This document shows positions 3,301-64,000 of a DNA stretch of 64,000 bases, one piece after another (position 1 is the stretch's first letter; each line of letters opens with the position of its first letter). The stretch lies in NCBI GenBank assembly GCA_002633005.1, contig NMRA01000624.1, positions 179,010-243,009 on the forward strand, written 5' to 3'. The notes under the pieces were generated by a model. That model was not told where the DNA came from and ran no database searches. It saw only the letters and a program-made list of their open reading frames with translations. Source of the DNA: Phoronis australis. Taxonomy: Eukaryota > Animalia > Phoronida. The position numbers were made by a program, and so were the translations under genes.

Positions 3301-3449
3301 CGAGTAAGTGGATTTATGTGTATAGTGAATGAGATGCTACGATCAGATGACCTCGGGCAAGTTGCCACGGGGTCCAAAATGTATGACTGGGAGCGAACTC
3401 TAATTCAATGACTTTTTGGATGTACTGATCAACTGATTACGTTTTACAG

Positions 3450-3584
3450 CACCTCGACCGTGTGTAAATAAAGTCGCCACACATGTATGTGCTACTTTCG
3501 TACACTGGAAACTCTGCAATTACTTTAAAAGTTGGGCAAGTGACCACTGCGAAGCTTACTGCGGTTTTTGCGTAGGACCTATAG
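3450..3584 (+). CDS. ShKT-like exon A (phase 1-1)
   Basis: ttttacag|...|gtaagt; translates PRPCVNKVATHVCATFVHWKLCNYFKSWASDHCEAYCGFCVGPI; six Cys ending CxxxCxxC; 135 nt. Confidence 0.85.
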
Positions 3585-6500
3585 GTAAGTGTGTAAAGAT
3601 CACAAGGCTTGGGAAATGAAAATGAATCTTGATATACTGTACCTTTGTTAATATTTGAACCGATGACAAATTTAGCAGTAATCAGCCATTGCCAAGTGTT
3701 CCATACATGTATATACTAGTATTCGTTTTGTGTTAATGAAGTGTTTCCCTACATGTATTAGCCACATGCTGCTAAGTTTTACTCATTCATTTATGTAAAG
3801 GTTGGCGTTCTTTATACAGCTGCATTCCTTCTTCAGGACGCAGTAACATGCATTGTCAGTGCTACAATAATACGCGACCTTCCTTAATGACACCTCAGAT
3901 GAGATGTTCAGTCATACTCCACTTGTGCAGTAATACTTAACCAGCGCTAAGGAATAACAGGCAACTTTCCAATTCAGTGACGAAGTGTCGCAAATTAGTA
4001 CATTACTAATTGAATTGGACCTGAGCTAAACAAGCGTTTTGTCGACTCAAAACCTATGTTTAAGGATAAGGATAATTTCGAGCGGTTGTTTTTTTCTTTT
4101 AAGTGGCTGTTTGTTCGAACAGCGCAATTTTGTTTAGTCAATCTAATTGATCATATCACAATCAATTAGTGCATTATGCGTTGCATCGGCAGTGTTTAGA
4201 TGCAATAAGATGATAAATTAATAAAGATTTTGATTTAGCTTAGAGCATATTCTTGTTCCAGAATTAGGTTTATTATTCCAAAGCGATTGTTCGTCCAGCT
4301 TGTTCCGCAATAGTCCGCCATCCACATTTTAACTGCCCCGGTACTTTGCGATTTGCACTCAGCAAGTCACAATCCTCATCTATTTGATGCTGTAAATACA
4401 AACACAACATATGCATGTTGTACGTATTTACCTAAACATCATTCAAGAATGAATAGACTCACCGGAGACAGCCCAAGGGTTATTACATTATTTCTGCGGC
4501 GAAGGATTGTGTCTCCGATGAGTTGCCAGCAATCACTGGTACGGTGCGCAGCTTTAGACGCTCTGCGGCTGGGTTAAATGAATTTTATAGGCCTAATTAT
4601 CCCCAATTCCCGAAATAGATAAATGCAACCACTGTGGTAATAACCACAAGTCTTTAGAGTGCGACAACGTGGAGAAAGAACCGACCTGCGCCAACTGCGG
4701 TGGCCCCCACCCAGCAAACCGCAGGTCCTGCAGTCACTACACTGACTACAAAACTGCAACTATAACAAAGAAGCTGTCATACGCTCAGGCTGCTAAGAGC
4801 CCATCAAACGACCTATAGGTCCTAAGACTGGCTACGACGCTCACCGAGCTGGCGGTGGGTATAATGATAACAAAACTAGGGCTAGACTTCGGAAAGGAAG
4901 AAATCAGCCAGTTGATCGTTGATTCCATCAACACCAACTACAAAACAGATCTGATTGGCTCACGGATCCTCCAGCTGGTGAACAGACTGAAAATATACAG
5001 TATCTAAAGAGACACCTCAGGTTTCCGCCATGGCTAGCCTACTACACATTAACCTCAATGGGGCGAGAGGAAAACGGCAAACTCTAATAGAGCATCTTAC
5101 CGACGAAAAAACAGACGTAGTATCCATGAAAGAAACCTGGCTGTCCGACACCATCAAATTCACAATACCTGGCTACAGCTTTGTCCGGAGAGATCGCTCC
5201 GACCGCTCGGGCGGCGGGGTGGGCATCCTTGTCAGGCAAGGAGTTGATTTCACTCCCATAGACACAAATATGCTCAGAGCTGAAGTAGTTGCGGTTGAAT
5301 GCCGCGTCAACAGAAAAACTACTGCAGTCGTGTCAATCTACAATCCTCTAGGAAGCATTGTAGACAAGTACCTATTTAGGCACTTCACGAACTCCTATAA
5401 ACAGTGCATATGTATGGGCGATTTCAACTCCAAGCATCTGTTCTTCGGAAACAGAAAACTGACATAGCAGGCGAGATACTCTTCAACGCCGTATGAAACT
5501 CAGATCTCCACCTAGTCAACGACACTGGTGAGCCCACTTACCACCAGTGGACTGGCGCACGCCGCCAGATCCAACATCGCGAAGTCTTGGACTTCATATT
5601 CATTACCCGATCTCTACTCAGCTCAGTGCATGAATGCGAGGTTAGGACGACCTCATGAGTGACCACCTAGCGGTACACCTGAAACTAGACAACGCCAGAG
5701 GCCAGCTCGACTCCCTCCCACAAGCTTACATGCACTCATGTAAGAAAATGAATTGGCAACAATTTAAGTGGGATGTGGAGACTGACATAGAATGTACGTA
5801 GAGCCCAATCCGTACTCCAGCCGATATTGATCATGCCTCTCAAGCGTTAAGAAATGCTATAAACAACGCATTGGATAAAAACTGTACCATTGTGAAGATA
5901 CGCCCATTCACATGGCGGTGCTCAGCAGACACACTGATGCTTATCGGGATCAAACGCAAAATCAAGCGCAAGACCCAGGTTTACCCTGACAACCCGATCT
6001 ACTGTAACATCTACAATGTATTGAAAAGACGCGTCGAGAACGCTTTCAAACACGAGAAAAGGCAATCGTACATGCAATTCTGTGAGTCTCTAAATGAGGA
6101 AAGGGGTAAAGGTTTTTGGCAGGCTTTTAAGAGGATTACAGGCAGGGGCCCTCACAACCACCAGAGTGCAAAACCACTGATTCATGACAACAAAACTGCC
6201 TCCTTTAACTCAGACAAGGCCACAGTGTTTGCTACAGAATACCCACAGGATGCACGAAGGCCCGATCTTCTGCAATATGACAAAACGCCTCGTAGACTGT
6301 GCAAAGGTCCGAAAAGCACATCTGTTCAATACCCTTAACACAATTACGCAAGACTGCGGGGATGACCACGAAATGCTTTCTGAAATAAAGCCATTCGAGA
6401 TCAGGCGAAAACTTTCTAAGTGTAAGAAAAACAGCAGCCCAAGAAACGATTCCACATAACCTGGATTTGTCGTGACGACTTGATTGGGACCTCAGGGGTC

Positions 6501-15500: not shown

Positions 15501-18500
15501 AGTAATATTGTCTCTGTGTTGATTTGTGTTTTTTAATCAGGTTTTTATACCACAGGAATTGTGTTTTGTAATTTTAATATCTGTCAGTAGTCATCTTTTT
15601 AAAAAAACATGAATCTATAAATTTTGTTGTTGTTATTGTGATTGTTAATCTGCCTGTATTTAATGTTATAGATTTGCAGGCAGAAATTGCATCACGTTTT
15701 GTTTATGTATTTTTTTCAAATGAAATCATTAGACGTCTACCAAAAAAATGACGTCACACGAGCGTCACGAAACTGTGGCAGAGGTCGTTTTTCCGAAGAT
15801 GTACGTGCACATATTTTGGATAACTCTAACAGGTTAGTCTTTTATTATACAAATATATTCAGACTAATGTGACTTAACCGAATAAGAATCAACTCGCTGC
15901 AAAATCGGTCAAAAACTGCAACGCAACACAAAAATAATGCGCAAGTCCATGCAAAATTTGCGTGCAAACGGACGAACTGGTGTTATGCGAGTACGGTAAA
16001 TTCGAAACATTGTCGACATAGTGTTGGAAAATGGCTGCCAAAAATGTCAACCTTTGCAATTTGTATATGTGCACAGCAGGACAGGGACGTTTTGGTATTG
16101 GGTACAACAAAAGCATATCCGTAAGGTGTGTTGAAATTGTGTATCAGTGCTAGAATTACCAAAGGACAAATGCGTTTAAGTTCGGCTAAGGGTTTTGACT
16201 ATCGCTTACACCTGATTACACGGCGGTAAATAATTTCCACTAATAAGACAAGTAATAACTACTGAGTCGACTCCATCTGAAGATGTGATACACAATTTCA
16301 GTAAAATTGTCTGTGTTTGTCAAGTCATTCTTCTTCAAAAAACTTCAGACCTATTGGTGTTTTAAATAATTTATTTTTCAATGTGAAACAAATTCTGATT
16401 AATTAAATATCAACTCTTTTATTCAAATACCATTTTCCAGTTTTCTGTCCCTAATAGCACAGTGCGAGAGCGCGTTTATAGACGTCGGGCAGGATACTAT
16501 TTATTAGGATGAGATGGTCAAAATTACATTGTACATGTAGGCTCGCATAAGCACTGGAGTATTGAAACACTAAATGTTCGTGTGAGAGTTGCCTCACTAG
16601 TTATTCTAATGCATTGATTAGTTCGTGTCGTGTTTCAGCCACGACCCCTCTTGTGACCCCGACTGAAGGTAGGTGTAAATCAGTCTATTCGCCATTTTGT
16701 GTAACCGAGTTGGTGCTGGTTGTTTATTTCTTCATAGAGAAATTCCTGAAAGAATTATTTCACTGCCAAAAGTTTATGTCTTATAGATAAGTAGAGCACA
16801 CGCCGGGGCATTTTGTTACCAACTGGGTCATACATGTAAATTAACTTGTTGTAGTGTGTTTCACACGCACCTGTATTCAGCGTTGATCTTCAGTAGTTGC
16901 AGATGAGGCTTGGGCGCCAAGTCTTGTTGTTTGAAACTGTCTGATGGGGAACTGGAAGTGTCGTAACATTGAATAGATTGTGCAGAGCGTTCTCATCTAG
17001 GTTATATAAGTCCAGACTGACCAGTCCACAATCAATCTGTTCATTGGTTTTCCACACAGTCTTCAAACTGGTAAACTTATTCTGTATTGCCTAAAACGCC
17101 CTTAGAATCACAACATAACAAATCANAGGGGGTTGCAGGGTGCGGGGGTCGAGGGTGTCAAAGGGGTTTCAGAATAAATGAGTTTTCGACTGGAAAACAG
17201 GTGGTGTCTGCTCTTCGTGGAATTACGTGAGATGACGGCGCTACACATTCAAAACTCCGCAAACCCATACGCTTACGATAAAAGCAATGAACCTTCCCCA
17301 GCTGCTTTCTCACCCAGTGGTGACTATACATCGACGAAAAAAGGCCGAACTGTTCAGATGTAACCTGCCCAACCTCTAAAAATCCTCTAATGTCCCTCCT
17401 GATCTGGACATGGCTACCTCCATTCCTTTGCAGACGTCCTGTAATGCTGCCATATAATAATGAAGTGGCCAATCACAGGTACGACATATTGGTAACCAGA
17501 TTTCTCCACTGCACACAGTTTAAACCTTGCCGTCAAAAGATATCTGTAATCTTAGTTTCATACAGTCCAAATAACTACATGTCATAACAATCACTAAAGT
17601 GAAAAAAAAATGTTTAATAAATTGCGAGGTGGTATATTCCTTAATTCTCAAAAATTTCAATGTAATTTTCAAATGTCCTGTCAATCAGATGTATCGTGTC
17701 AAACTCTTCCATGCTCTTGATTCTATTGTTGGCGTCAACTCAATTTAGCACACCTTACCTAATAATCAATTTTCATTTTAGTCTCATGGGTCGCATCAAC
17801 TTAATTTGGATATGAGTATGTTTAATAGATATAATATCCACTTTAATTTATACTGTAACAGCAAATTCTATTTTAGCTACAATACTCAGTAATATTGTCT
17901 CTGTGTTGGTATGTGTTTTTTAATCAGGTTTTTATACCACAGGAATTGTGTTTTGTAATTTTAACATCTGTCAGTAGTCATCTTTTTAAAAAAACATAAA
18001 TCTATAAATTTTGTTGTTGTTATTGTGATTGTTAATCTGCCTGTATTTAATGTTATGGATTTGCAGGCAGAAATTGCATCACGTTTTGTTTATGTATTTT
18101 TTTCAAATGAAATCATTAGACGTCTACCAAAAAAATGACGTCACACGAGCGTCACGAAACTGTGGCAGAGGTCGTTTTTCCGAAGATGTACGTGCACATA
18201 TTTTGGATAACTCTAACAGGTTAGTCTTTTATTATACAAATATATTCAGACTCATGTGACTTAACCGAATAAGAATCAACTCGCTGCAAAACCGGTCAAA
18301 AACTGCAACGCAACACAAAAATAATGCGCAAGCCCATGCAAAATTTGCGTGCAAACGGACGAACTGGTGTTATGCGAGTACGGTAAATTCGAAACATTGT
18401 CGACATAGTGTTGAAAAATGGCTGCCAAAAATGTCAACCTTTGCAATTTGTATATGTGCACAGCAGGACAGGGACGTTTTGGTATTGGGTACAACAAAGG

Positions 18501-21500
18501 CATATCCGTAAGGTGTGTTGAAATTGTGTATCAGTGCTAGAGTTACCAAAGGACAAATGCGTTTAAGTTCGGCTAAGGGTTTTGACTATCGCTTACACCT
18601 GATTACACGGCGGTAAATAATTTCCAATAATAAGACAAGTAATAACTACTGAGTCGACTCCATCTGAAGATGTGATACACAATTTCAGTAAAATTGTCTG
18701 TGTTTGTCAAGTCATTCTTCTTCAAAAAACTTCAGACCTATTGGTGTTTTAAATAATTTATTTTTCAATGTGAAACAAATTCTGATTAATTAAATATCAA
18801 CTCTTTTATTCAAATACCATTTTCCAGTTTTCTGTCCCTAATAGCACAGTGCGAGAGCGCGTTTATAGACGTCGGGCAGGATACTATTTATTAGGATGAG
18901 ATGGTCAAAATTACATTGTACATGTAGGCTCGCATAAGCACTGGAGTATTGAAACACTAAATGTTCGTGTGAGAGTTGCCTCACTAGTTATTCTAATGCA
19001 TTGATTAGTTCGTGTCGTGTTTCAGCCACGACCCCTCTTGTGACCCCGACTGAAGGTAGGTGTAAATCAGTCTATTCGCCATTTTGTGTAACCGAGTTGG
19101 TGCTGGTTGTTTATTTCTTCATAGAGAAATTCCTGAAAGAATTATTTCACTGCCAAAAGTTTATGTCTTATAGATAAGTAGAGCACACGCCGGGGCATTT
19201 TGTTACCAACTGGGTCATACATGTAAATTAACTTGTTGTAGTGTGTTTCACACGCACCTGTATTCAGCGTTGATCTTCAGTAGTTGCAGATGAGGCTTGG
19301 GCGCCAAGTCTTGTTGTTTGAAACTGTCTGATGGGGAACTGGAAGTGTCGTAACATTGAATAGATTGTGCAGAGCGTTCTCATCTAGGTTATATAAGTCC
19401 AGACTGACCAGTCCACAATCAATCTGTTCATTGGTTTTCCACACAGTCTTCAAACTGGTAAACTTATTCTGTATTGCCTAAAACGCCCTTAGAATCACAA
19501 CATAACAAATCAACTAAATATATGTACGCAACTGTCCAGAAATCATCCACATGCTAGTCTGCGTCGTTACATGTAAATGGAAATGACCTCAGATTATCTA
19601 TCGAAAAAAGTTACCCCCTTGGCTGAACACAGACTTATACTAGCGTATAAACGCGTTAAAATGTTAGAGCAACGCGATAAATTGTCACTTGCAGACAAGT
19701 CTCACGTTTAAACTGGAACGTATGCAAACTTGAATACAATTGGAACACAAATTGTTGGCCACGTTTCCTGTTCGTTCATCAAAAAATCCTCCAGATGGCA
19801 ATGTAAAAAGTAACTTCCTAAAATTGCACCTAGATGGCATCACTTTACGGGGTAAGAGCACAATTGGCAGAGTTCGAGGCCACCTTTAGTTTAAACAAAT
19901 TTTCATTGTATTAACAATAAATTTTGACTTGTGACGAAAAACTGATAGCGTTTTACAGCATCCCGACCGTGTTTGGATAAACTCGAAGACTGTTCTTCTC
20001 ACGGAGATGTCGACACACTCTGCACAAAGTATAAAGGGTGGTCAATTGTCAACTGCGAAGCTTACTGCGGCTTTTGCAAAAGACCGTCAACAACCACAGG
20101 TACTGTAAGTGTGAAGCGATCGTCTGGGTTCTGAATGGACAAAAGTTTCTCGAATTCTTTGGTAATGTGAACGTTTAAAGACGCTCATAGGAATAACCAG
20201 CCATAGCCGAATTCAACATGTATGCACGTACATGTATATAGAAGAAGTATACATATCCGAATTCATGCGTTTTTGTGGAAATCGTTTATTAAAGTATTTT
20301 ATAATGAGGCGTATGCAGCTAAGATTCACTCGTATGTTGAGGTCGGTGTCTTGTTTGCAGGCACACCACTTGGTGAGGATGCAGAAACATACGTTGCCCG
20401 TGGAATACAATTTTTTGCGAGCAATTATTCGAAGTGATGTCTCAAATAAGATGTCTTGTTATGCGTGACGCATTTTCTACTTAAAATGCATCTACTGAGG
20501 AATAATAGGTAGCAGTACATTTCAGTAACGAACTGCAGATTGTTTAATGTTTTATGTTCGTTGAAAGAAAGAAAGCTAGTAAATTGTTAATTGAATCGGA
20601 CCTCAATAGTGTATCAACACGTTTGTTTGTCTTAAACCTGTTAATTTTACCTTCCCATTAAAACCAGGTAAAGTGGTAACACTTTTCAACTGAAATCGAC
20701 TGAGATTAAATTCAAGTTGCAGCTTGAACACGTGAATGTACATGTATGCTCTACATCTAAGACTTTTTGAACCCTTTAGCAAAAGTCTTCACACTTTTAT
20801 AACCGGCAGGCAAACGAATTTGAAAGCTTTCTGAGAAATTCCATATCACTTACAGCAATCTGGGCTCAAAATAAGGATCTTAGAAAGAAAATCAGTCAAG
20901 TGATTACACTTGTGAGGACTGCCTAAACTTTAACGCTCTGGTAATCTATATATACATGTACCTGTACGGCTACAAACGATGATAAAATTAGCATAAACCG
21001 CAGGCATAGTCCAAAGCTCACAATACTATGCTCATATTTACATGCAGAACAATGTGGTAGTGTCCAAAATCAAGAGTTTTAATGAATTTTAATTATTTGG
21101 GTATTTCGCAATTAGCCGCGTAATGCCAAGTTTTACTCGTATGTGCATTGTGGTATCTTTTGTACAAAAACATTCCTTGTTGACCATCCATCACGTTTCA
21201 GTGTCCGTGGAACACGATTTTACCCGACTCTGTGGGAGCAATCACCCGAAATGATATCTCAGACATATTACTAGACAAGCGAGTCGCCCCAGACATGGCA
21301 TGTCTGGGTCGACACACTTGCCTAGTGATATGTGCAGTATAGCACTGTAACCAATATCAAGGAGTAGGGACACCAGTCTAATTCAATAACAACATGTTGC
21401 AAATTTATTGTTTCATATTCAGTGAAAGATAAACAAGCGAGTACATTATTAATTGGACTGAACTTGAATAATCGTATAATGTTTGGAAATGTAAATCGAA

Positions 21501-21811
21501 CCGTTTGATTATTACTCAATATGAGTTCTAGATAGAAAGGTGCTGGCAATTAACAAAGGCATGTCTATGATCACACACCAAGCAAAGAATTCAAAGGGAA
21601 ACAGTCAACGAAAATTCAAATCAAAACAAGTATCAATAAACGTATTCTCATCTAAGGCATAAATTCAGTGGACTGCACGATATTACAGTTTATTAATCGT
21701 CTATTCGGAGATTGTAATACGTCCAATTTGACTCACTATTTTCATTTTCATGACTATGTTCATTTTCAACATCTATGTTCATTATAACTGTATAAAAGCA
21801 ATAAAGAGAGC

Positions 21812-21857
<46 letters not shown>

Positions 21858-24800
21858 TTATAAATAGCAATAGTTTTAGTTGTAGCAACAGAAACAGCAG
21901 CAGTAGCAGCAGTAGTAGTAATAAAAAACAAAAATAACTGTAACGAACTCAACAAAGATATTAATAACATTCGTTCATAGACAATGGAAAATTCAACAAT
22001 GTGTTATAAGAAATCGATATTGCCAAGAGTTTTTCGCCACCTCAGAGCCTCAAAGAAGGTGGTGGTAAGACGAGCTCGATGCTAACGTAAGTTAACACGA
22101 GTTTTCGCTGAATTGGCAATATCTTTGATCATGTAGCGCTCAACTGATGACGTTTTACAGGACCGAAACCGTGTGTGGATAAAGTAGAAAACTGTGGTTC
22201 TTACGGACACGTCAGCACACTGTGCACGAGGTATAGAAGTTGGGCAAGTGTAAACTGCGAAGCTTACTGCGGCTTTTGTATAGGACGGTCAACAGCGACA
22301 GGTGAGTGAGAGGATATCAATTGGACTGTGCATTGAAACGGCTAGCTTTTACTGCTTTACAGGTGAGATTTAATTTAGTAATTCGTGTTCATTGCAATCA
22401 TGCTTGTGGTGGTTGGATATTGCTCTTGCGAATGGTGAAGTGAATTTCATTGAAACGCTGTAATGCATATAATTTGTGGGTTATCTGGGTGCAGAATCGA
22501 CGTCATAACATGTTGGGCACATCCATATATGCTCAGTCCTCCACCTCAGAAGCTCACGCAGAACACCTAGACTAACTGTTCCAGTAAGATGCTGATTCTG
22601 GATTTTCCGCCAGATTCCTCTTATTGTAGACTTTGATGCGGTTCTCTTGTCTACACCAAACTGTCACAATCTTTCGACTGTTTCCCCAGTTTCCTCTTCC
22701 CGCTTCTCATCCAGAGCAGTAAGCACCTTTGCCTCACCCATCTCCAAGGCTCACTCCCGCAACTTTGTCAGCCCTTTTGTTACCGACAACTCTTGCATGA
22801 CCCGGCGAAAAAATACAGACAAGGGATTCCAGGTGGGTTTTATGTGGCTCTGCTGTAGTTCGCGCAACATGCTTTGTGAGTCTGTCACAATGGCCGTCCT
22901 GTGAATTTTTGCGAGCATAGCCATCTTAAGTTTACCGCGATTATGCTGAACTTCTTGTTAAAGTTATCGGACTAATGAGTTACAGTACAGTACCCACGAG
23001 AGATACGTTCGGCGAATAGTTTACTGTGGTAGTTATTTTGGAATTTTCGGTTGAAAGAAAAGAAGTTCGCTTTGTGCACTGTTCCACCGAATCGTTATCC
23101 CAAGAATGCTGTCCATTTTCACAAGGCTTTACCGTTTCTTGTGATGGTGTAGATGTTCCGGGGCATTATTTTCTGATTCCTCGCTTCACTGCCGTGGGTT
23201 CAACCTAGATGTTTTAAGCCCTGCACACTGACGTCCAAACAGGTACATGTAACAAGAGACGTCTTCTTAGGCCCATTACTGTTTCATGCGAATAGTTCTC
23301 GTTATGTTTCACGATATCCTCTTCAATCCATTATGCTACTTTTCTCTAATAATATCGACAACCATACTTGTCGTTGTCGTCGTCCTCTCTGTCGATCATT
23401 GTTGCGTTTCGCCACATGTCGATCTCTAAACTGCACTCATTTTCATCTCTAGCTTTTAATTCCCAATCGATGCGTGTATATATATATCAGTTCGCGGTAG
23501 AAAGGTGGTGGCAATTCACAAAGGCATGTCTATCATCAAAAATCGAATTATATCTCAAAGTAAAACAGGCAACCAACGTTGGAATAATATAGGTGTTAAT
23601 GAACATTTTCCCACTTAAGATCGAAACACCCTGAACCTCATTAATCTATTGTGTATTAACGTCTTTTGAGATAGTGTACTAGGTCTTTTTCTACATGCAT
23701 TTGTTTTCGTTTTGATGACCACGTTCATTCTAAGCCTTTCGCCCCCTATAATAATAATAACGATTAAAGTTATAACTTCTAGAAATTCAGAAAGAGTATT
23801 TTAATATTAAAATAACATTCAAAACAATAACAATTATTTTTTACTACATTTCAAAGAATTAAACATCGCAACTTGCTTTTTCAATACTTCAGAGAAGGTG
23901 AAGGTAAGTTGAGCTCTCAGCCACCGCGGGATAACACGAGTTTTCACTGAATTAACTGTAAATTTTATAACGTAGCGATTTTCTGGTGACGTTTACAGCA
24001 GCCCGACCGTGTTTGAATAAAGCCGACAACTGTGCTTCTTACGGATCCGTCGACACACTCTGCACGAGGTATAAAAGTTGGGCAAGTGAAAACTGTGAAG
24101 CTTACTGCGGATTTTGCATAGGGCAATCAACGACAGGTAAGTGTGAGGAGATCACCTATGTTTTGAATGGAAACGGAATCTTAAATCTTCTGTTAGTTTA
24201 CACGGATAGAAGCGATAAAACATGTAAGTTTAGCAGTAACTGAAGCCATAACTAGATTTGCATGTAGGAATGCGTACCAATATCCTAATCAAGCGTTTTA
24301 TGACCATTTATTATTTGAGCGTTTCGCGATGAGAGGCATGGTTGCAAACTTTATACGTATGTGAATGTTGGTGTCCTTAATTGTAGAGGCATATTCTTTG
24401 TTGAGGATACAGGAGGATTCAGTGTCTGTGGAATTTTTGGGACTCGAGAGCTTATTTCCTAAATGATATCTCAGATTAGATGTTCTATCCAGCTTGCCTC
24501 ACGTGCGCACTAATATGTAACAATTCAGTGACGTTCTGCAAAGTTTCCTTCGGTGAAAGATAAACAAACGAGTAATATATTATCAATTAAATCGGCCATG
24601 AATAGAGCAAAAAAATTGGAAACAAAACTTAACTGAAAGTGACTGTGCCTAAAATGAAGTTGCCTATAAAACACGTGTATATGCACTTGATCTAAGTGTT
24701 TTTCCAAACCCGTTTTGCGAGACTATTGTTACTGACAGGCAAAAGACACCAATGCCGGGTTGCATGAAACAGTCCCAATTAGGGACTCAAAAAAGTTCCC

Positions 24801-57800: not shown

Positions 57801-60800
57801 CAGCCAGTTTCTGTTTTGTTCTACATTGCGAAATTCTTCGCAAAACATCATACTCTATTTCACTGTGTTAGTTTATCTTTTGTTTGTTTTAAGCACTCTT
57901 TGGGCTTTGTCTGTTTACTCGACCGAACGTTTGAAATTTTACACACAACATGTGTCTCACGATTACCTGAAACTCAAAGCTTGAAGTCGAACACAGGGTG
58001 GCGCCAGAAGTTGCGCGGTTATGTCAATGTTTTCGTAAAGAACGACCTGAAGTGGATCACCCCTTTCTCGCAACAATCTACATTTTCCATTTTCTATGGA
58101 CTGGACCTCTCTTCAGTTTACTTAAACTGCAATGCGTTTTATATGTACTGTACAATGTTCTTCAGTGCATAATGATTTCAAGGTCATTGTCGTGGAAAAA
58201 ATTAACCCTTTTTTCAGCAGTTAGAAGTAGCGCACAATTGAACGTAGTAGCTCTGCAATAGCTGGCAAACGCTATGCGTTAAAGCCATGTCCCACGCGTT
58301 AATTGGCATCGTATATTTATGTGTGTCTAAGTCGTAAAGATCCCGGCAAATGTCTGTCTGACAACGCGAGGTTTTGCAATTTGTCCACAAAATTGAACTT
58401 GTTGTTCTGTAGCTCTGAATGAAGGAAATAATTCCAAGAAGGTTGTCCCTTCTAACAACAATCCTAACACGTTTTCATTCAGAAAAACGGCAGCGATTCT
58501 CTAAGATGACCTACATGTAAATTACTAAGCCACTTCCTTGAAAAAAAGTTTACCCACGCTCAGTTGATAGTCTAACGTTGTTTGCTAAGCTGAATAATAG
58601 CTGGTCTTTATGTTGTGCACCGAATGTCCCCCGGTCAAAATTCCAGGACCCCGATGCCTCCCTGGCTCGGTTTTGAGCTGTCCTGTTATAATGTAGGCGT
58701 CATTCCTAATTTTCTTTGTTAACCCATAGGCGGATTTAGGGGGGCAGGGCCCCGTCCCCTTGGCTGCCGCAAGCAAAATGAAACAGCAGCAGCGTGAAGC
58801 GTGAGGAAATATTGAATATTGAGTTCAGGAGCTAGGGCCGGTAGCGGACGAAAGGGGGGGGTGCTCAGACGCGGAAACGCGTTGCATTTTTTTTTGTCCA
58901 CCAATACATTTTATGAACTCAAGGTCTACATCCTCCCCCCCCCCAACTTTCGGGCCGCCTGTGCACATACAATCGCGCTTTGCCCAATTCCCCCGAGGAT
59001 GTTGAAACCCCTTATGGAATCCAGTTCCGCCACTGTAACCGTCTATGAAATTGTGCATTAACACGATGACATTTGCCAATGGATATGTTATCTTACCATA
59101 TTTATGTTCCTGTTTTTAAGCAACTTCCTATGAGAAGTCATTGACGTATGGGTAATATTCGAAAGTGGCGCTATTTGTGACTTAGAAACAACTTTCGCCG
59201 TAACGACCTCATCAGTCTGAGGTCTACTTGCCGTGATTGTCTCGCCTTGCTTAAATGTGTCAAGTAAATGTAACAAATAAGGTGGTTGTATTGTTTAAAC
59301 TGTGATTGCCATCACTGGGTCAGTCATGGAAGACATAGCAGGACTATTCCACTTTTCAAAACATTTCAGTTTTGTGCTCTCTTCGTTCAGGTATCTAGAT
59401 AAGTATCTCCAAGCGCTATGGGCAATGGGTTATTAGTTTCTCGTGCCTGATGATTTGCAAAACGAATTTTGAAATAACTTGAAATAACTGTCTTGGCAAG
59501 CTACATGGATTAAAGAGAAATGAAACATCTGTTAAGTGTGTTTCGAAAATTTAGAAACATTGAATGATCCATTTCCGTCCGGTTGCTTTTATACAATGAA
59601 TTCCAAAGGCACATGTCAAGGTGTTGTTATCGTTTTATATTTCATGACAATAAAAGATCTCTTATAGAACACATTGAGTCAGTGTATCCTAATCTTCATC
59701 ATCGTGATCGTCTTTTTATTTCATTTATTTACAGATTGCAAAGAACAGTTTTGTTACAATGGTGGCGACCTTGATCCGGAAACCTGCAAGTGCAAGTGTT
59801 CAAATTTCGGTGTCAATAATTATAAACCGGAAGACAACTGCAAACGTAAGTTATCCTTATGGCCTCGTGACAGTTATTTCGCCGTTGGCCCTTGTTTGCC
59901 GCAATACGCTATGAAACACAGGTGCGGGCAAAAAGTCGTTGTACTTGACATTTGGCACACGGCAATGAAGTACAGCAGTTTTCCCAACCAGCTGAACATC
60001 ACCAAAATTTCTAGATCCAAACGTTCTACTCGATTTTTCTCTCTTTCTTTCATCTCCGTAGATTCCACAAAAATGCTGGCTACACCGAGCCACAATATAA
60101 ACAAGTGTCTCTCCACCCGCGTTGGCAAAATCAGGGAAATTAATTAGCAAGGTCATTCATAAAAACTTAGCGATTAATCGCATTTACGTCACTTTAAACT
60201 CCACATCATCGACAGAATATTCAAGTAATACCGGCTAGAAATTTGTCCTTGACGTACACGTAGTGGTCTAGCACAGTCTTGCCAAACTTAAGTCTGATAA
60301 CTTAATTTTAAAGACTGATCAGTGGTAATCTTTGAAGTAATTCATCAGAAAAATGAGCACCTACTGACGAGACTCTCATCGGTCATTCCACGCACCCAAC
60401 TGCTGTGCAGTTTATAAATTAAGTTATAGAATGTGCCCCCTTTAGACGTTTTCGCCAGAACGCCACGGATTCGAGTTCTCGGACATCCACGTAGATTACC
60501 TTAGTGAGCACTATTTCTTCGAGGTTCCTTTTGTACATGTTGCTCAATTTTTTTGTAAATTGGGTTTGAATCGAGAAAGTATATGTTTTTAGACATTGGC
60601 CATTTTACGTTCTGTTTACAAATAAACTCAGTGTTCCGAACATGAATCACTGACTAATGATAGTCCAGATTGACGACTGCTACATCTGATTTCATGAACA
60701 TGGTTTAAAAGTAATTGTGTTTTTAGACTTAGAATAGGTGTATTAGATAATTGTGAATTTCATCAAGTCGGTTTAAATTTTAGATCAGTGGTCAACTAAA

Positions 60801-62312
60801 AACAGTTTATATCTCGTTCAAGCCGGTTTATACTTCACCACCGATGTCTAAATTCCTTAGACCTGCACTTGATCATAAACCAGGTTTAACTTTGGACGTG
60901 ATCAGATTCAGTTTAATACGGTTGACTTCTGCGGTGTAGAGTTGCTCAAACGTACAGTACAGTTGAGAGACCATTTAGGGTGTGTCGCCGACTTCAGAAT
61001 GGACCACGTTCAGTTTTACGTGAGCGATAAACTTGAAAAATCGGTTCCGAATGACAACACTGGCAACAGACTTCATAAAAGTGGCGCTAGGTCAACCAGT
61101 GCAACTAACCTTGAGGAAGCAGAGTACAACGTCAGAACTGAAAGTGTTATTTACGATTCTATACAACCGGTAGCTAATCATACTTTATTTAATTTTGAAA
61201 GTTTGTTTTCAGTCGCATTACAAAACATGCAGGCCCTGTTGCAACTGTCCTAATTGATGATATAATCAAACTGCATAATATGATCAGTGACTGCCGAGCT
61301 GTGACACACTGACTGAGAAGCCCGTTTCTGGTTACGGGACGGTGTTCCTCAGACTCTGTATCGTCGTGATGTTTGAAAAGACGAGTCCCGAGTTCGATCC
61401 CTACCAGTCCCAATTATATAAGTGCGGCTCACACCGCAAGGTACATGTATCTGATAAACCACACCGGTGTTATCCACAAAACTACATTTGTCCTTGACAT
61501 GCACAACAAAACTTCTGAGCCTCCTGACTGGTTTAGTAGCACTATTTTTTTTTTTAATTGCAGGCGGTCTGATACACGTTGTATCAGACGTGCGCAGGCC
61601 TCGCATGTGGGCCCATTGCACTGATCNGGCTCAAAGGTTTAGCAGTGTGACCTGGTGGGACTTGAACCCACGACCTCGAGTAAAGAAAGCGGGCACTTAT
61701 CAACCAGGCCACACTGCCTCCTCTAGTAGCACTAGAAGTGTTATAGGATTTCATCGCAGAGGAGTGCCTGCGTGTTGTGATGCCGCGACTTGTTAGCACT
61801 GCCGCGGGTTGATTGTGTTTTGAGACTCCCTGTTAAATTGTTATGGAGTCCCAGATATCAAATCTATCCAAACACAGTTGAAGACACATACACTGTACGT
61901 GTACATATACTGTATGAACATAATGTATATGCATGTACAGTGTATTCGTGTATAGTGTGGAACCATCTAAGTCTTTCGGTAGAGTGATTTTGCTATCCCG
62001 TTTTCGACGTGAGGCCTTCTTTGCTGCAATTCTTTCACTTTGTACATGTAATTGTGATGTTTACTGACTCGTTGAGACAACAATTACAAAGAATTGCACG
62101 ATGTGTTATCAAGAAGATCATTAGGTATCCAGGCAGTAGCGCGGTGTATCACTTCCTCAAAGCATAGCATTACAATAGGTTTGTTGCTATTTTAGTATTC
62201 TGCAAATCAGCAAAAAAGCCGCCACACTGTACTGAACCCGACTTCCTGGATACGTGTGGCAAATACGGCTCTACACCGTTGCAATGTCCATTTATGTGCA
62301 ACGTTTGCCCCT
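3450..62312 (+). CDS. Spliced gene model (partial): (ShKT)x6-7 - linker - CAP/SCP - EGF-like - ShKT; cysteine-rich venom/secretory-protein-like (Tex31/Mr30-like)
   Basis: 16 AG/GT-bounded exons joined by hand with compatible phases and no stop: 3450-3584, 19959-20099, 22161-22301, 23999-24136, 30909-31049, 35850-35993, 42071-42211, 43081-43101, 46592-46708, 47937-48025, 48502-48586, 49288-49430, 51710-51798, 52604-52683, 59735-59845, 62196-62312 (1833 nt). No ATG/signal-peptide exon or stop exon identified. Membership of exon A is uncertain. Confidence 0.75.
4440..7503 (+). mobile_element. Degenerate, internally deleted non-LTR retrotransposon (I/Jockey group LINE)
   Basis: ORF1 remnant 4621-5007 with gag-like zinc knuckles (CNHCGNNHKSLEC, CANCGGPHPA...C), an SYAQAAK motif and a premature TAG at 4816-4818. 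ORF2 from ATG 5030 encodes an APE endonuclease (INLNG, ETWL, GGGV, IYNP, GDFN, SDH), with frameshifted linker to KNSSPRND at about 6450. RT core absent; C-rich 3' tail about 7300-7500. Confidence 0.88.
6455..7105. mobile_element. Foldback/MITE: near-perfect 650-bp palindrome inserted in the LINE
   Basis: Arms 6455-6767 and 6794-7105 (about 312 bp) are reverse complements with scattered mismatches; 26-bp loop; termini CATAAC...GTTATG; no perfect TSD (TCCA vs ACCA). Confidence 0.9.
7504..9010. repeat. Diverged copy of 62969-64000 (interrupted by an insertion at about 7750-8290)
   Basis: Collinear matches: accaagcacttcc.gaacaa, tgcctctcaac, ttgcggaccagtaag, ccatatcattttgacctcatca, gagcgacc.ataagcg.accg, gcaaaagtgga.aac. 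Confidence 0.85.
7753..7828. repeat. (TAGA)n microsatellite
   Basis: Imperfect tagataga run. Confidence 0.9.
9481..9635. mobile_element. Short GC-rich MITE (GGCG(G/T)ATCTAG...GATCCGCC type)
   Basis: Imperfect terminal inverted repeats cataggcgtatctag / ctcgatccgcccccg; related sequence at 58726; no clear TSD. Confidence 0.45.
9721..13965. mobile_element. Possible non-autonomous CACTA/EnSpm-like element (CCCAG terminus) with internal inverted repeats
   Basis: Left end cccagtaaacatgacagtattggcccagtact; inverted, reiterated gtactggccc / ggggccaatac motifs at 13750-13962; internal IR pair 10739-10768 and 11466-11495; right terminus degraded. Confidence 0.4.
14742..19512. repeat. Near-identical 2.38-kb tandem duplication joined by a single N (probable haplotype/assembly artefact)
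   Basis: 14742-17125 and 17127-19512 differ only by scattered substitutions and 1-2 bp indels; N at 17126 exactly at the junction; duplicated ORF-track entries. Confidence 0.9.
19959..20099 (+). CDS. ShKT-like exon B (phase 1-1)
   Basis: ttttacag|...|gtactg; SRPCLDKLEDCSSHGDVDTLCTKYKGWSIVNCEAYCGFCKRPSTTT; 141 nt. Confidence 0.85.
21812..21922. repeat. (AAT)n microsatellite followed by (AGC/AGT)n
   Basis: Direct reading; shorter AAT runs occur at the equivalent position of paralogous introns (about 3073, 23750, 30405). Confidence 0.92.
22161..22301 (+). CDS. ShKT-like exon C (phase 1-1)
   Basis: ttttacag|...|gtgagt; PKPCVDKVENCGSYGHVSTLCTRYRSWASVNCEAYCGFCIGRSTAT; 141 nt. Confidence 0.9.
22500..22925 (-). 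mobile_element. 5'-truncated non-LTR retrotransposon fragment encoding RNase H
   Basis: Minus strand gives AIVTDSQSMLR and, after a frameshift, FSPGHARVVGNKRADKVA (RNase HI TDS and PGHxGxxGNExAD motifs); stops and frameshifts present. Confidence 0.8.
23999..24136 (+). CDS. ShKT-like exon D (phase 1-1)
   Basis: tttacag|...|gtaagt; ARPCLNKADNCASYGSVDTLCTRYKSWASENCEAYCGFCIGQSTT; lies within ORF 23986..24243; 138 nt. Confidence 0.9.
24753..25190. mobile_element. MITE with about 35-bp TIRs (PIF/Harbinger-like)
   Basis: tgccgggttgcatgaaacagtcccaattagggactc vs gagtcccagtttgggactatttcattcaaccggca; TSD not clear. Confidence 0.55.
25355..25392. repeat. (CA)n microsatellite
   Basis: Direct reading. 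Confidence 0.85.
30909..31049 (+). CDS. ShKT-like exon E (phase 1-1)
   Basis: ttttgcag|...|gtgagg; PRPCVNKINNCASYGPASSLCLLYKSWASERCEAYCGFCVPPSTTT; 141 nt. Confidence 0.9.
33164..34067. mobile_element. About 110-bp Merlin-like MITE split by a solo LTR
   Basis: 8-bp TSD TGTTTAGT (33156-33163, 34068-34075); TIR GGCAATGGTCTGATATAACGTG / CACGTTCTGTCAGACTATTGCC; absent from the paralogous intron at about 1760-1800. Confidence 0.8.
33255..34043 (-). mobile_element. Solo LTR (789 bp)
   Basis: TGTCA...TGACA termini; 5-bp TSD GGCAC (33250-33254, 34044-34048); TATAAATA at about 33700 and AATAAA at about 33357 on the minus strand. Confidence 0.85.
35850..35993 (+). CDS. ShKT-like exon F (phase 1-1)
   Basis: ttttacag|...|gtaagt; PRPCVNKVDCASYGEVNTLCTEYRGWASDNCEAYCGFCVAPSTLPTK; 144 nt. 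Confidence 0.9.
40085..41643 (+). mobile_element. Non-autonomous Kolobok-like DNA transposon with degenerate THAP domain
   Basis: TTAA|AGGAGATTGCCACCC ... GGGTGGCTCTCTCCT|CTAA. ORF 40238..40480 reads CIVPAC...SFFRLP...VCSRYFVDSDF, a THAP pattern with the conserved W and H substituted. Flanks join into the paralogous pre-exon intron sequence. Confidence 0.75.
42071..42211 (+). CDS. ShKT-like exon G (phase 1-1), most divergent copy
   Basis: tttcatag|...|gtaagt; SRPCVDLKDNCDAYPDDMCTNHLYKGFARTNCEAFCGFCIGPSTTT; 141 nt. Confidence 0.9.
43081..43101 (+). CDS. 21-nt linker micro-exon (E-F-T-P-P-K-R)
   Basis: tttttgttccag|AATTCACACCTCCAAAAAGAA|gtaagt; strong acceptor and donor, length divisible by 3, phase 1-1 fits both neighbours. 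Confidence 0.65.
44081..44200. repeat. 12-bp minisatellite (TATCAGATACAG-like)
   Basis: About 8 imperfect units; explains the QYQIQHQ periodicity of ORF 43913..44182. Confidence 0.75.
46360..46387. repeat. (TA)n microsatellite
   Basis: Direct reading. Confidence 0.95.
46592..46708 (+). CDS. CAP protein N-terminal extension exon
   Basis: ttttttcaaatacag|...|gtaaat; phase-1 reading AVPLPQRPAGDCKDKFKYHFSGKHSACFARSSKHKAIT (C...HxxC pattern preceding invertebrate CAP domains). Confidence 0.8.
46855..47135. repeat. About 43-bp minisatellite, 6-7 diverged units
   Basis: Unit like GCTAATGACGTTTCGTCAAACTGATCGACGTTTGTCATCCTAA. Confidence 0.8.
47937..48025 (+). CDS. CAP domain exon 1 (CAP3 motif HNxxR)
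   Basis: polypyrimidine tract + cag|...|gtgaga; GVSDKNKKLIVSLHNKVRSEVSDAKFMLKM. Confidence 0.92.
48502..48586 (+). CDS. CAP domain exon 2
   Basis: tatag|...|gtaaat; RWDDEVAMVAQRWAEVCKFAHDSDRSIP (WDxxxAxxAQxWAxxCxFxH). Confidence 0.92.
49288..49430 (+). CDS. CAP domain exon 3 (GQNI, WxDE, GHYTQ)
   Basis: ttttag|...|gtcagt; GRFYVGQNIAYYSVRSTNWPFIIKLWADEKQYYTHGDKWNETFGHYTQ. Confidence 0.95.
51710..51798 (+). CDS. CAP domain exon 4 (IGC..., YVCNYxP, CAP2 motif)
   Basis: ttgcag|...|gtaagt; MVTAGTYLIGCGEAICEGIGHYYVCNYAPG. Confidence 0.93.
52604..52683 (+). CDS. CAP hinge exon
   Basis: ttgtag|...|gtaagg; phase 2-1; GMSRYPYPKGILGTACPAFIDNNNLC (PYxxG...CP...NLC). Confidence 0.88.
52867..57026 (+). 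mobile_element. Academ-like DNA transposon relic
   Basis: Imperfect TIRs tagtcc...ctccgtggctactttctgggggcaa / ttgccctcaaaaaagtaaccacggaag...ggacaa. Transposase C-terminal remnant 56429-56610 reads LPPNHDCLLLHAKRANYHFAIYKRAL..PSSVGNGW...W, matching the LPP...H.xRA.Y..W...GW motif, and is followed by an acidic tail remnant. Confidence 0.72.
54413..55318. mobile_element. 906-bp foldback DNA element filled with a 21-bp satellite
   Basis: 6-bp TSD GATAAA (54407-54412, 55319-55324); TIR TACG(A/G)TGGCCCGAAAGTATCATCGC; about 29 units of CACCTGGGTGGAAACTATTTT followed by about 8 inverted units, flipping near 55085. Confidence 0.9.
57068..57625. repeat. Diverged repeat with about 150-bp period carrying CTCF-like motifs
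   Basis: GTGCC(C/A)CCTAG(T/A)GG(C/T)AATTTT-like motif at about 57068, 57214, 57355, 57512 and 57605. Confidence 0.6.
58726..58963. mobile_element. GC-rich MITE-like insertion
   Basis: Starts cataggcggatttagggggg and ends ggccgcctgtg; resembles the 9481 element. Confidence 0.4.
59735..59845 (+). CDS. EGF-like exon
   Basis: tttacag|...|gtaagt; DCKEQFCYNGGDLDPETCKCKCSNFGVNNYKPEDNCK (CxNGG..CxCxC..Y....C). Confidence 0.9.
61640..61718 (-). mobile_element. tRNA-derived SINE head (pol III A/B boxes), truncated at a scaffold N
   Basis: Minus strand GTGGCCTGGTTGATAAG (A box) ... GGTTCAAGTCCC (B box); extra bases before the 3' acceptor strand and a poor anticodon arm; N at 61627. Confidence 0.55.
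62196..62312 (+). CDS. C-terminal ShKT/ICR-like exon
   Basis: ttttag|...|gtaagt; LFCKSAKKPPHCTEPDFLDTCGKYGSTPLQCPFMCNVCP (CPxMCxxC); donor shows the gene continues downstream. Confidence 0.88.
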
Positions 62313-62427: not shown

Positions 62428-64000
62428 NAACACCTTATTATTTTGAATTAGCTAATGCAAGAAAATATGAGACTTGAAACAGAGACCCACGAAAGTGTGC
62501 CAAAGCCCCATTATCTTCTTTTGCAAGCTTTTAAATTCATACCTGAGCACTGACTTCATTTGGTTCTGAAGGCAAAATTCGACTTCAAAGGTTCTAGTTG
62601 CGAAGAGATTCCGTGCAGGAGATACAGTTGCTCGAACAAAAGTCGCGTTGCAATGACTTACAATGTTTAAGCTCCGCATTGCGCCATTTTAACAATCTGC
62701 TGCACATGAGCTTCGCTTTTTGGAATGAGTAGCTCGTCATATAGTGGCTGCGAAAACATTACAGCATCCTGGCATATGCAATGATATCGATACTGAAGAA
62801 TTGTTTGTTTACTGGATGAGCTCGTTTCCATGTGTACACTTCATTTTTCTGACCAATAAGAAGACTGGTCTAAAGCGTGTTAGTAATGCTTTACCGCAGG
62901 CCTCATACAGTAAACGTTTGACGCGGTATTTCAATAACAAATATGACTGCTATCCAATGTGGTGACCCACCAAGCACTTCCTGAACAACTTGCTGCATGC
63001 CATCGGGAGCAATTAACGTTTCACGTTTTACCTGTGATGACACCAATAATCCAGTAGTACCACTTCAGGTTCATTCAATCTGTAAAATTAACCTGGTATG
63101 CCTCTCAACTAGCCAAGTCCATTCACTCAAACCTGCTTGCATGCTCGTGAGGCCGTTCACAACATCACCGGAAGTATGCTTGCGTAAGCTGAAGCAGAAT
63201 ACTCCGGGAGTACACTGTTTGCGGACCAGTAAGACAGGTCAACTTTTTCAGTGGCCTTCGAATTCCATTTGGTTTTGTCATAGTCAACAGGTGCCATTGA
63301 CTTATCGCAAGCTCCGCCCCCTTGCGAAATGTCGACAAACAAACAATAACTTTTACCCGGCAACGTGTTGTTTGTCGGGTAAAATGTCGACTTGTAAACC
63401 GAGGGTGTGTCAAGAATGCTGTATTCTGATTGGTCGGATAAGCCATCATTCACAATCCTGGCGATACATGTACTGTATGTCAATTGTAGATACACATGTA
63501 TGAGTTTTACTTACTGGAAAGATTATCTGTAAATAAGTCGAATTACATAAGAGAGCGAACCATATCATTTTGACCTCATCACAGCAGGTCAAGATTTGTT
63601 GATCTCTTCCCGATCGTGAATTACTGGCAGCATCGTCACCATGTGCTGCTTTTAGTTGACGTAAGCGTCTTGAAGGCCGAGCACAGGCTAGTTGAGACGT
63701 CTTTGCCATGTTGCCAGTTAATTTAGGGTGCCCATTTGTTTCAATATCAACATAACTAGCGAACGTGTTGCACTACTACATAATGTTAGGTGTGACGCAC
63801 ATTGCTCCCAGAATTACATGCTTTGAATTGCTTCGAGTGTCTTGTGGATGGCATTTGTATACCTTCTCTCAATTACAAGTGTATTGTTGAGCGACCGATA
63901 AGCGGACCGCTGGTTTTACTTTGATTTTCAAGGGGGTGGTGAGGACTATTCCCGAGGAGTGGTAGCTATGGACGAAGCAAAAGTGGATAACGGAGCTGAT

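What the first reader, a model, noticed from the sequence alone, without database searches (positions are those of the whole stretch)
3450..62312. Hidden gene: an array of 6-7 ShK-toxin-like domains fused N-terminally to a CAP-EGF-ShKT venom-type protein
Seen: seven paralogous exons (typical spacing C-x6-C-x9-C-x10-C-x3-C-x2-C with Thr/Ser/Pro linkers), a micro-exon and eight CAP/EGF/ShKT exons splice in one open frame; no separate signal-peptide exon was found between 42211 and 46592. Known: CRISPs and Conus Tex31/Mr30-type proteins carry the CAP domain first and Cys-rich/ShKT-like modules C-terminally; ShK itself is a Kv1 channel blocker. Inference: an expanded N-terminal ShKT array on a CAP protein is an unusual architecture and a candidate defensive, toxin-like or extracellular-matrix polyprotein.
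Basis: partly seen in the sequence, partly recalled or inferred. Interest (0 to 1): 0.85.

Follow-up and report, generated by a model that had tools for sequence, protein, structure and literature searches.

The report
Six ShK domains fused before CAP
An invertebrate animal expresses a gene in which an array of sea-anemone-toxin-like (ShK) domains, most likely six, is spliced in front of a CAP (venom-allergen-like) protein, the reverse of the usual order; it likely encodes a secreted surface or mucus protein rather than a channel-blocking toxin.

Summary
The gene is real and expressed. Seven ShKT exons exist (Pfam PF01549, ShK fold), and RNA reads join exon G through a micro-exon into the CAP exons, so the N-terminal array is not an artefact. 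The CAP gene carries six ShKT exons (B-G), starts at a missed first coding exon ending at 18219, and has three missed Thr/Pro linker micro-exons. Exon A most likely belongs to an upstream, roughly tenfold more abundant sister transcript with no CAP exons behind it. 11 of 18 junctions are listed in the read tables; the E-F link is inferred; the stop exon was not found. None of 161 closest ShKT relatives has ShKT before CAP, but a CAP-side search failed, so rarity is only partly tested. Toxin activity is unsupported: 0 of 7 domains have Lys at the ShK dyad position, and their closest relatives are mucin-like, VWA and ADAMTS matrix proteins. Best reading: a likely secreted CAP-ShK type II-like protein that gained a shuffled phase 1-1 ShKT array. 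The scan had not noted this on other DNA. New variant of a known kind; interest 0.4.

The parts
18135..18219 (+). First coding exon, coding part (in-frame ATGs at 18135 and 18186; in-frame stop at 18117; donor at 18219). Weakly hydrophobic, signal-peptide role uncertain. A 99% identical second copy ends at 15832.
   Evidence: Joint 18219>19026, 10+10 reads; sense depth of 2-4 back to 17127; frame analysis; best 9-residue hydropathy 1.59 against a median of 2.58 in 154 relatives
19026..19055 (+).
   Evidence: Joints on both sides, 10+10 and 12+12 reads
19959..20099 (+). ShKT exon B (domain 1)
   Evidence: Pfam ShK E 0.18; joints u1>B and B>C, 16+8 reads
22161..22301 (+). ShKT exon C (domain 2)
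   Evidence: Pfam ShK E 1.4e-4, above cut-off; model pLDDT 82, ShK fold; C>D 6+6 reads
23999..24136 (+). ShKT exon D (domain 3)
   Evidence: Pfam ShK E 7.7e-4; D>u2 16+11 reads
29319..29345 (+).
   Evidence: D>u2 16+11 and u2>E 10+3 reads; composition
30909..31049 (+). ShKT exon E (domain 4)
   Evidence: Pfam ShK E 0.0025; u2>E reads
34648..34674 (+). Linker micro-exon u3, paralogue of u0 and u2; its donor reads AT in this assembly (a GT lies 6 nt upstream, in frame); inclusion inferred
   Evidence: Paralogy; bin depth equals 13x and 6x over the exon, matching E's own 14x and 6x; joints not among the listed rows
35850..35993 (+). ShKT exon F (domain 5)
   Evidence: Pfam ShK E 0.0033; F>G 18+14 reads
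42071..42211 (+). ShKT exon G (domain 6)
   Evidence: Pfam ShK E 1.5e-6, above cut-off; G>u4 10+20 reads
43081..43101 (+). Linker micro-exon u4, joining the array to CAP; encodes a Lys-Arg pair
   Evidence: Joints on both sides, 10+20 and 12+12 reads; translation
46592..52683 (+). Six CAP-domain exons: 46592-46708, 47937-48025, 48502-48586, 49288-49430, 51710-51798, 52604-52683
   Evidence: In frame, AG..GT; exon 3 matches Sol i 3 (E 2.2e-5) and Ves v 5 84-109, exons 4 and 5 match Ves v 5 112-164 and 165-196 weakly but in order; joints 1>2 (13+11) and 3>4 (12+11) in reads
59735..59845 (+). Six-Cys EGF-like exon (label by Cys pattern; Pfam gives only CXCXC)
62196..62312 (+). Non-canonical ShKT-like exon (Cys spacing 8-8-9-3-2; alternative acceptor 62211); ends in phase 1, so the stop exon lies further on
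2367..2393 (+). Linker micro-exon u0 of the upstream sister transcript
   Evidence: 136+114 reads run from an ShKT exon end into these 27 nt and then CAC
3450..3584 (+). ShKT exon A, most likely of the upstream sister gene, not of the CAP gene
   Evidence: Pfam ShK E 0.013; segment 430-4430 is a 71-75% paralogue of 31985-36403 and 42863-43272; not itself laid with reads
34121..34237 (+). Decayed ShKT exon with stops (relic); paralogous relics near 1857-1980 and 27010-27150
   Evidence: nhmmer E 2.4e-5; paralogy of the three places

Best explanation
This is one expressed, spliced gene in which an array of ShK-fold exons with Thr/Pro linkers (most likely six; the E-F link is inferred) is joined in front of a CAP domain, and it likely encodes a secreted epithelial-surface or mucus protein whose ShKT modules would act as repeated binding arms rather than as potassium-channel blockers. 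Shown: the exons, their frame, 11 of 18 junctions, the ShK fold, the CAP identity, presence in 2 of 3 RNA runs. Inferred origin: every ShKT and linker exon is phase 1-1 and sits in tandem exon-plus-intron units, so the array grew by tandem duplication inside the phase-1 intron that precedes the CAP region (class 1-1 exon shuffling); relic exons and a sister gene next door record gains and losses. Inferred working: after secretion the linkers would be O-glycosylated and extended, the CAP domain would anchor the protein to lipids or cell surfaces (a role discussed for CAP in PMC6409789), and the ShKT arms would bind matrix, mucus or microbial partners, as in the mucin-like, VWA and ADAMTS proteins that carry the same ShKT subtype. 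A Lys-Arg pair in the last linker could let a convertase separate array and CAP (untested).
For: Junction reads, X1+X2: first exon>u1 10+10, u1>B 12+12, B>C 16+8, C>D 6+6, D>u2 16+11, u2>E 10+3; F>G 18+14, G>u4 10+20, u4>CAP1 12+12, CAP1>2 13+11, CAP3>4 12+11; all GT..AG and all on the sense orientation. 19 of 19 exons open and in frame, 622 codons without the tail. dN/dS below 1 in 21 of 21 exon pairs, 0.27-0.96. Model of exon C: pLDDT 82; 10 of 10 chains with Z>=2 among 48,161 are ShKT or CRISP Cys-rich folds, best MMP23 ShKT (Z 4.5, rmsd 1.9, 37 aligned). The 161 closest relatives are multi-ShKT proteins, those with names from molluscs, a nemertean and a bryozoan, with VWA, ADAMTS, C-lectin, astacin, MAM, IgGFc-binding, CBM14 or no other domain. 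Non-venomous molluscs have CAP-ShK type II genes, mantle-specific in oyster (PMC6409789); ShKT-astacins are mostly expressed in barrier epithelia (PMC9848320 passages).
Against: Function is not tested at all. The first exon is a poor signal peptide by hydropathy (1.59; 41 of 154 relatives score as low or lower). The u3 donor is AT in this assembly. Short reads show adjacent junctions only, not one molecule with all six domains; the counts do not balance (B>C 16 against C>D 6 in X1; D>u2 11 against u2>E 3 in X2). The tissue of runs X1-X3 is unknown, so a gland-specific role is not excluded.
Confidence: 0.6

Rival explanations
1. A defensive or venom polyprotein: the ShKT domains modulate ion channels and CAP localises them, as proposed for snail CAP-ShK proteins and snake CRISPs.
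For: ShK fold confirmed, with MMP23, BmK1-type and hookworm ShKT domains nearest; expression in 2 of 3 runs only; 7 of 7 domains keep Lys/Arg between two aromatic residues one place before the dyad position; PMC6409789 notes that a missing dyad does not rule out channel activity; Lys-Arg pair before CAP.
Against: 0 of 7 domains have Lys at the dyad position (ShK Cys numbering recalled); net charge -3 to +1; the shifted Lys/Arg is common in relatives (174 of 587 domains); no solved toxin matches the profile at E<=10; dN/dS below 1 throughout; 3-20 junction reads per run in about 12 million records.
Confidence: 0.2
2. A young read-through chimera in decay: a tandem copy of a multi-ShKT gene came to lie upstream of a CAP gene and splices into it without a selected function.
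For: Weak signal region; u3 donor AT; relic ShKT exons; the sister ShKT transcript has about ten times the reads and another CAP paralogue has 34+20 reads against 12+11 at CAP3>4.
Against: All 19 exons open; all 36 ShKT cysteines of B-G kept although dS between exons is 0.34-1.09; nearly all CAP exon 1 molecules come from the array, so the CAP part has no detectable promoter of its own.
Confidence: 0.12
3. Exon A and further upstream ShKT exons belong to the same gene, giving a longer minor isoform with seven or more N-terminal domains.
Against: 10 of about 12 molecules at u1 come from the exon ending at 18219, which has an upstream in-frame stop; the u0 transcript has 136+114 reads while B has a depth of 15 and 22; the A segment copies the 3' end of the array and is followed by a retrotransposon remnant.
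Confidence: 0.12

Closest known systems
Molluscan CAP-ShK type II proteins (Cumia CreCAP-ShK 4-7; clade of Conus Mr30 and Tex31), PMC6409789
   Same: CAP followed by EGF-like and poorly recognisable ShKT-like Cys modules
   Different: Those have only a 30-50 aa low-complexity spacer before CAP and all Cys modules behind it; this gene has about 345 codons with six canonical ShKT domains before CAP. Placement in that clade was not tested.
Lophotrochozoan multi-ShKT mucin-like, VWA-ShKT and ADAMTS-ShKT proteins (P0001-P0016 and others)
   Same: Same ShKT subtype (Tyr/Phe..Trp-Ala loop, 36-58% identity per domain), tandem arrays of up to 16 domains with Thr/Pro linkers; one has five ShKT before an IgGFc-binding domain (P0104)
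   Different: None of 161 has CAP behind the array; the one with CAP (P0143) has a distant CAP first and ShKT after
ShK and ShK-like channel modulators (sea anemone ShK, MMP23 ShKT, nematode ShK-like peptides)
   Same: Six-Cys two-helix fold
   Different: Domains are embedded in a large protein, 20-28% identical to the solved ones, neutral to acidic, without Lys at the dyad position
Vertebrate and snake CRISPs; insect antigen 5 (Ves v 5, Sol i 3)
   Same: CAP domain with colinear matches
   Different: CRISPs carry one ShKT-like domain C-terminally; antigen 5 proteins have none (PMC6409789)

Membership tests
ShKT domain (PF01549) | Six cysteines in ShKT spacing, ending C-x3-C-x2-C | tested here: met
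   7 of 7 exons
ShKT domain (PF01549) | Profile match | tested here: met
   7 of 7 cover model positions 1-37, E 1.5e-6 to 0.18; 2 of 7 above the curated cut-off
ShKT domain (PF01549) | ShK fold | tested here: met
   Exon C only: pLDDT 82; 10 of 10 chains at Z>=2 are ShKT/CRISP folds, best Z 4.5, rmsd 1.9, 37 aligned; Foldseek rows agree but E>1
ShK-type Kv1 blockers | Lys-Tyr dyad six and five residues before Cys4 (Lys22-Tyr23 from PMC6409789; Cys numbering recalled) | tested here: not met
   Ser or Gly at the Lys position in 7 of 7, Trp or Phe at the Tyr position
ShK-type Kv1 blockers | Potassium-channel block | not testable with these tools
   Needs electrophysiology
CAP superfamily | CAP domain with its motifs in order | tested here: met
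   Exon-wise: exon 3 to Sol i 3 E 2.2e-5 and Ves v 5 E 7.4e-5; exons 4 and 5 follow in order at E 0.17 and 1.2; Pfam CAP E 0.13 on exon 3 alone. The whole domain was not scanned as one query.
CAP superfamily | Two His and two Glu of the CAP cavity (recalled) | tested here: inconclusive
   Both His and one Glu are present by eye; the other Glu position is Gln, as in Ves v 5 (alignments)
CAP-ShK type II (Mr30/Tex31 clade) | C-terminal EGF-like plus non-canonical ShKT-like modules | tested here: inconclusive
   Two six-Cys exons with fitting patterns; Pfam gives neither EGF nor ShK; own ShKT profile E 0.012 on the last exon
CAP-ShK type II (Mr30/Tex31 clade) | Only a signal peptide and a 30-50 aa spacer before CAP | tested here: not met
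   ShKT array spliced in front of CAP against the description
CAP-ShK type II (Mr30/Tex31 clade) | Phylogenetic placement of the CAP domain | not tested
   No animal CAP relative could be retrieved
CAP-ShK type II (Mr30/Tex31 clade) | N-terminal signal peptide | tested here: inconclusive
   Short, weakly hydrophobic first exon; no signal-peptide predictor on hand

The most novel reading that the evidence does not exclude
A recently assembled (ShKT)6-CAP-EGF-ShKT architecture with no counterpart in other lineages, caught beside the ShKT-only sister gene it came from or gave rise to, whose phase 1-1 ShKT exons are spliced as cassettes to give isoforms with a variable number of domains, and whose array is released from CAP at the Lys-Arg linker as a multivalent defence protein with targets other than the classical Kv1 pore.
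Probability: 0.2. Interest if true: 0.65.

Novelty: new variant of a known kind. Interest (0 to 1): 0.4.

Why it matters
CAP plus ShKT is a common pair (more than 600 proteins according to PMC6409789), described with the Cys-rich modules behind CAP. This locus shows, with RNA support, that the pair has also been built the other way round, from a different ShKT subtype that otherwise serves in mucin-like and matrix proteins. It supports independent recruitment of ShKT to CAP and gives a compact example of exon shuffling with its intermediates in view (tandem units, relic exons, a sister gene without CAP). It also adds six natural ShK-fold domains without the classical dyad for asking what such domains bind. 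It is a gene-annotation and domain-evolution result, not a new mechanism, and gives no evidence of a new toxin.

Tried and rejected
No whole genome is held, so the upstream sister exons, the last exon and the CAP paralogue could not be located. No RNA holder was listed by the index; three raw-read runs of the same species label were laid instead. CAP-side protein searches found no candidates: CAP exon 4 and the frame holding CAP exon 3; both are weak negatives. The Atlas gave no answer. P0143 was tried as a scaffold for the CAP exons; the alignment was meaningless and was dropped. A local scan of the 161 relatives with single CAP exons found nothing but also missed P0143's CAP, so it was set aside for Pfam. 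The first fold (7 rows) had pLDDT 50 and was not used. A tree of the seven exons has 0 of 4 supported inner branches, so the order of duplication is not resolved. A scan for strongly hydrophobic ATG exons gave five candidates, none linked to the gene by a listed joint. Rejected: a separate start in 43100-46590; the 14742-19512 duplication as a real second gene copy (99% identical, meets at the N at 17126, most likely unmerged haplotypes); further intact ShKT or CAP exons in the window. Paper searches for the reversed architecture: searches gave 0 papers; some searches gave listings in which I saw no such report (5 papers opened in part). Earlier findings of the scan: nothing that bears on this.

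Full report
WHAT IS THERE. The window is animal genomic DNA (39% G+C, three single Ns at 17126, 61627, 62428). A six-frame scan finds seven ShK-like exons on the + strand (A 3450-3584, B 19959-20099, C 22161-22301, D 23999-24136, E 30909-31049, F 35850-35993, G 42071-42211) and one C-terminal six-Cys exon ending at 62312. All seven are AG..GT, phase 1-1 and 62-83% identical in DNA, and their flanking introns are also paralogous, so exon-plus-intron units were duplicated in tandem. Pfam ShK matches 7 of 7 over the whole model, 2 of 7 above the curated cut-off. A model of exon C built on 39 rows has pLDDT 82; all 10 chains with Z>=2 among 48,161 are ShKT or CRISP Cys-rich folds, best the MMP23 ShKT domain (Z 4.5, rmsd 1.9, 37 aligned). 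Six exons from 46592 to 52683 encode a CAP domain: exon 3 matches Sol i 3 (E 2.2e-5) and Ves v 5 residues 84-109, and exons 4 and 5 match Ves v 5 112-164 and 165-196 weakly but in order.

RNA TEST. Three raw-read runs with the same species label were laid on 30001-49900 and 17127-31950 (about 18-19% of each run); a fourth, contig-only run was laid on the first stretch and showed no depth on the exons. Runs X1 and X2 give GT..AG joints in the sense orientation: exon ending 18219>u1 (10+10 reads), u1>B (12+12), B>C (16+8), C>D (6+6), D>u2 (16+11), u2>E (10+3), F>G (18+14), G>u4 (10+20), u4>CAP1 (12+12), CAP1>2 (13+11), CAP3>4 (12+11). X3 has none of them. That is 11 of the 18 junctions of a 19-exon model. 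The E-F link is inferred: the bin holding u3 has a depth equal to 13x and 6x over the micro-exon, against 14x and 6x for E's own 5' part. The u3 donor reads AT in this assembly, with an in-frame GT 6 nt upstream.

CORRECTIONS TO THE MODEL. B is not entered from A in any listed joint. Its upstream chain is u1 (19026-19055) and an exon ending at 18219, which has an in-frame stop at 18117 and in-frame ATGs at 18135 and 18186, with sense depth of 2-4 back to 17127. This is most likely the first coding exon. Its hydrophobic stretch is weak (best 9-residue mean 1.59; median 2.58 in 154 relatives), so secretion is likely by domain content but not shown. The corrected model is first exon, u1, B, C, D, u2, E, u3, F, G, u4, CAP (6 exons), EGF-like, ShKT-like: 622 codons from the first ATG, all open, plus a last exon that was not found. 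Exon A most likely belongs to another transcript: 136+114 reads that fit only the last 46 nt of E, with a foreign 5' part in 107+87, run into micro-exon u0 (2367-2393, 27 of 27 letters) and then CAC, the start of A (also of E and F); the foreign part was not found in the window. Segment 430-4430 is a 71-75% paralogue of the u3-F region and of the intron around u4, but the u4 body and donor are deleted there, a non-LTR retrotransposon remnant follows, and no CAP remnant lies behind it. So a sister multi-ShKT gene, about ten times as abundant by read count, appears to end at the left of the window without CAP. A decayed ShKT exon at 34121-34237 (E 2.4e-5; best of 3 shuffles 0.069) has paralogous relics near 1857 and 27010. 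The 2.4-kb duplication 14742-19512 is 99% identical and meets at the N, most likely unmerged haplotypes.

IS THE ARCHITECTURE UNUSUAL? From the ShKT side, a word-based search gave 16 proteins, none with CAP among the precomputed domains, and a full HMMER search gave 341 at E<=0.001, of which the best 150 were listed: 161 distinct proteins in all. Of the 145 new ones, 71 have an ShKT-free stretch of 120 residues or more; Pfam found CAP in 1 of these 71, P0143, with CAP first and ShKT after; the other 74 were not scanned, having no room for CAP. So 0 of 161 show ShKT before CAP; 191 weaker hits were not seen. Partners of this ShKT subtype are VWA, ADAMTS, C-lectin, astacin, MAM, IgGFc-binding, CBM14, TSP1 and VWC domains; N-terminal arrays on other domains occur (P0104). 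Named relatives are from molluscs, a nemertean and a bryozoan, which suggests a lophotrochozoan host (inference). From the CAP side nothing could be retrieved, so (ShKT)n-CAP proteins with more distant ShKT types remain possible. In print: PMC6409789 (sections 3, 6, the first part of 8, and passages; figures and supplements not seen) describes molluscan CAP-ShK types I and II with the Cys-rich modules C-terminal and at most a 30-50 aa spacer in front, places Mr30 and Tex31 in type II together with non-predatory molluscs, and counts more than 600 CAP+ShKT proteins without listing their domain order in the parts I read. PMC10730640, PMC3744408 and PMC9848320 (passages) and PMC13273113 (abstract) describe multi-ShKT proteins without this fusion in what I saw. 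Searches for the reversed order found 0 papers; the other listings were read as titles and abstract starts.

HOW IT MOST LIKELY WORKS. Shown: a spliced transcript, present in two of three samples, with symmetrical ShKT cassettes and Ser/Thr/Pro-rich linkers (3-7 of 6-9 residues) before CAP. Inferred: class 1-1 exon shuffling and tandem duplication built the array in the phase-1 intron ahead of the CAP region; whether the sister gene is the donor or a truncated derivative cannot be told (tree unresolved). Inferred: the product is secreted, its linkers glycosylated, CAP binds lipids or surfaces and the ShKT arms bind protein or microbial partners at an epithelial or mucus surface. Against a classical ShK-type blocker: Ser or Gly at the dyad Lys position in 7 of 7, net charge -3 to +1, dN/dS below 1 in 21 of 21 pairs, and no match of the profile to any solved sequence at E<=10. 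For caution: all seven keep Lys/Arg one place earlier, but so do 174 of 587 domains of the relatives, and a missing dyad does not exclude channel activity. A Lys-Arg pair in u4 could be a processing site (untested). Unbalanced junction counts hint at exon skipping, but the numbers are small and paralogue reads interfere at D and E.

VERDICT. Observation partly confirmed (architecture real; six domains, not seven; first exon and three linkers added; end missing). New variant of a known kind. Gene structure about 0.85 likely as drawn; function as a non-toxin surface or mucus protein about 0.6. Interest 0.4.

Noticed in passing
window 430-4430 and upstream of the window: Sister multi-ShKT gene, about ten times as many reads as the CAP gene; at least one, probably two, of its ShKT exons lie outside the window (reads at 31004-31049 and at 24111); its copy of the last linker exon is deleted and no CAP follows.
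   Followed up: partly
window 48558>49286: Reads of a second, more abundant CAP paralogue (34+20 against 12+11) with other letters in exon 3; its locus is not in the window.
   Followed up: no
window 4600-6400: Decayed non-LTR retrotransposon: zinc-knuckle-like ORF1 remnant, endonuclease (Pfam PF03372, E 8.9e-7) and a further open frame, directly behind the sister gene's homology break.
   Followed up: partly
window 14742-19512: 2.4-kb tandem duplication, 99% identical, meeting at the N at 17126; holds the first coding exon and u1 twice; probably an assembly overlap of two haplotypes.
   Followed up: partly
window 34121-34237, about 1857-1980, about 27010-27150: Decayed ShKT exon relics in introns, one per large duplication unit.
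   Followed up: partly
window 54450-55280: Minisatellite of about 38 copies of a 21-nt, partly palindromic unit inside the intron behind the CAP exons.
   Followed up: no
window 6495-7066: Inverted repeat with 273-nt arms, 93% complementary, 26-nt spacer (MITE-like).
   Followed up: no
window 7504-9008 and 62969-64000: Two copies, 70-83% identical in pieces, of an interspersed repeat.
   Followed up: no
window 17127-19025: Sense-strand reads cover at least 1.1 kb upstream of the first donor and, in X2 only, the first intron: a long 5' exon with upstream ATGs, or retained intron.
   Followed up: no
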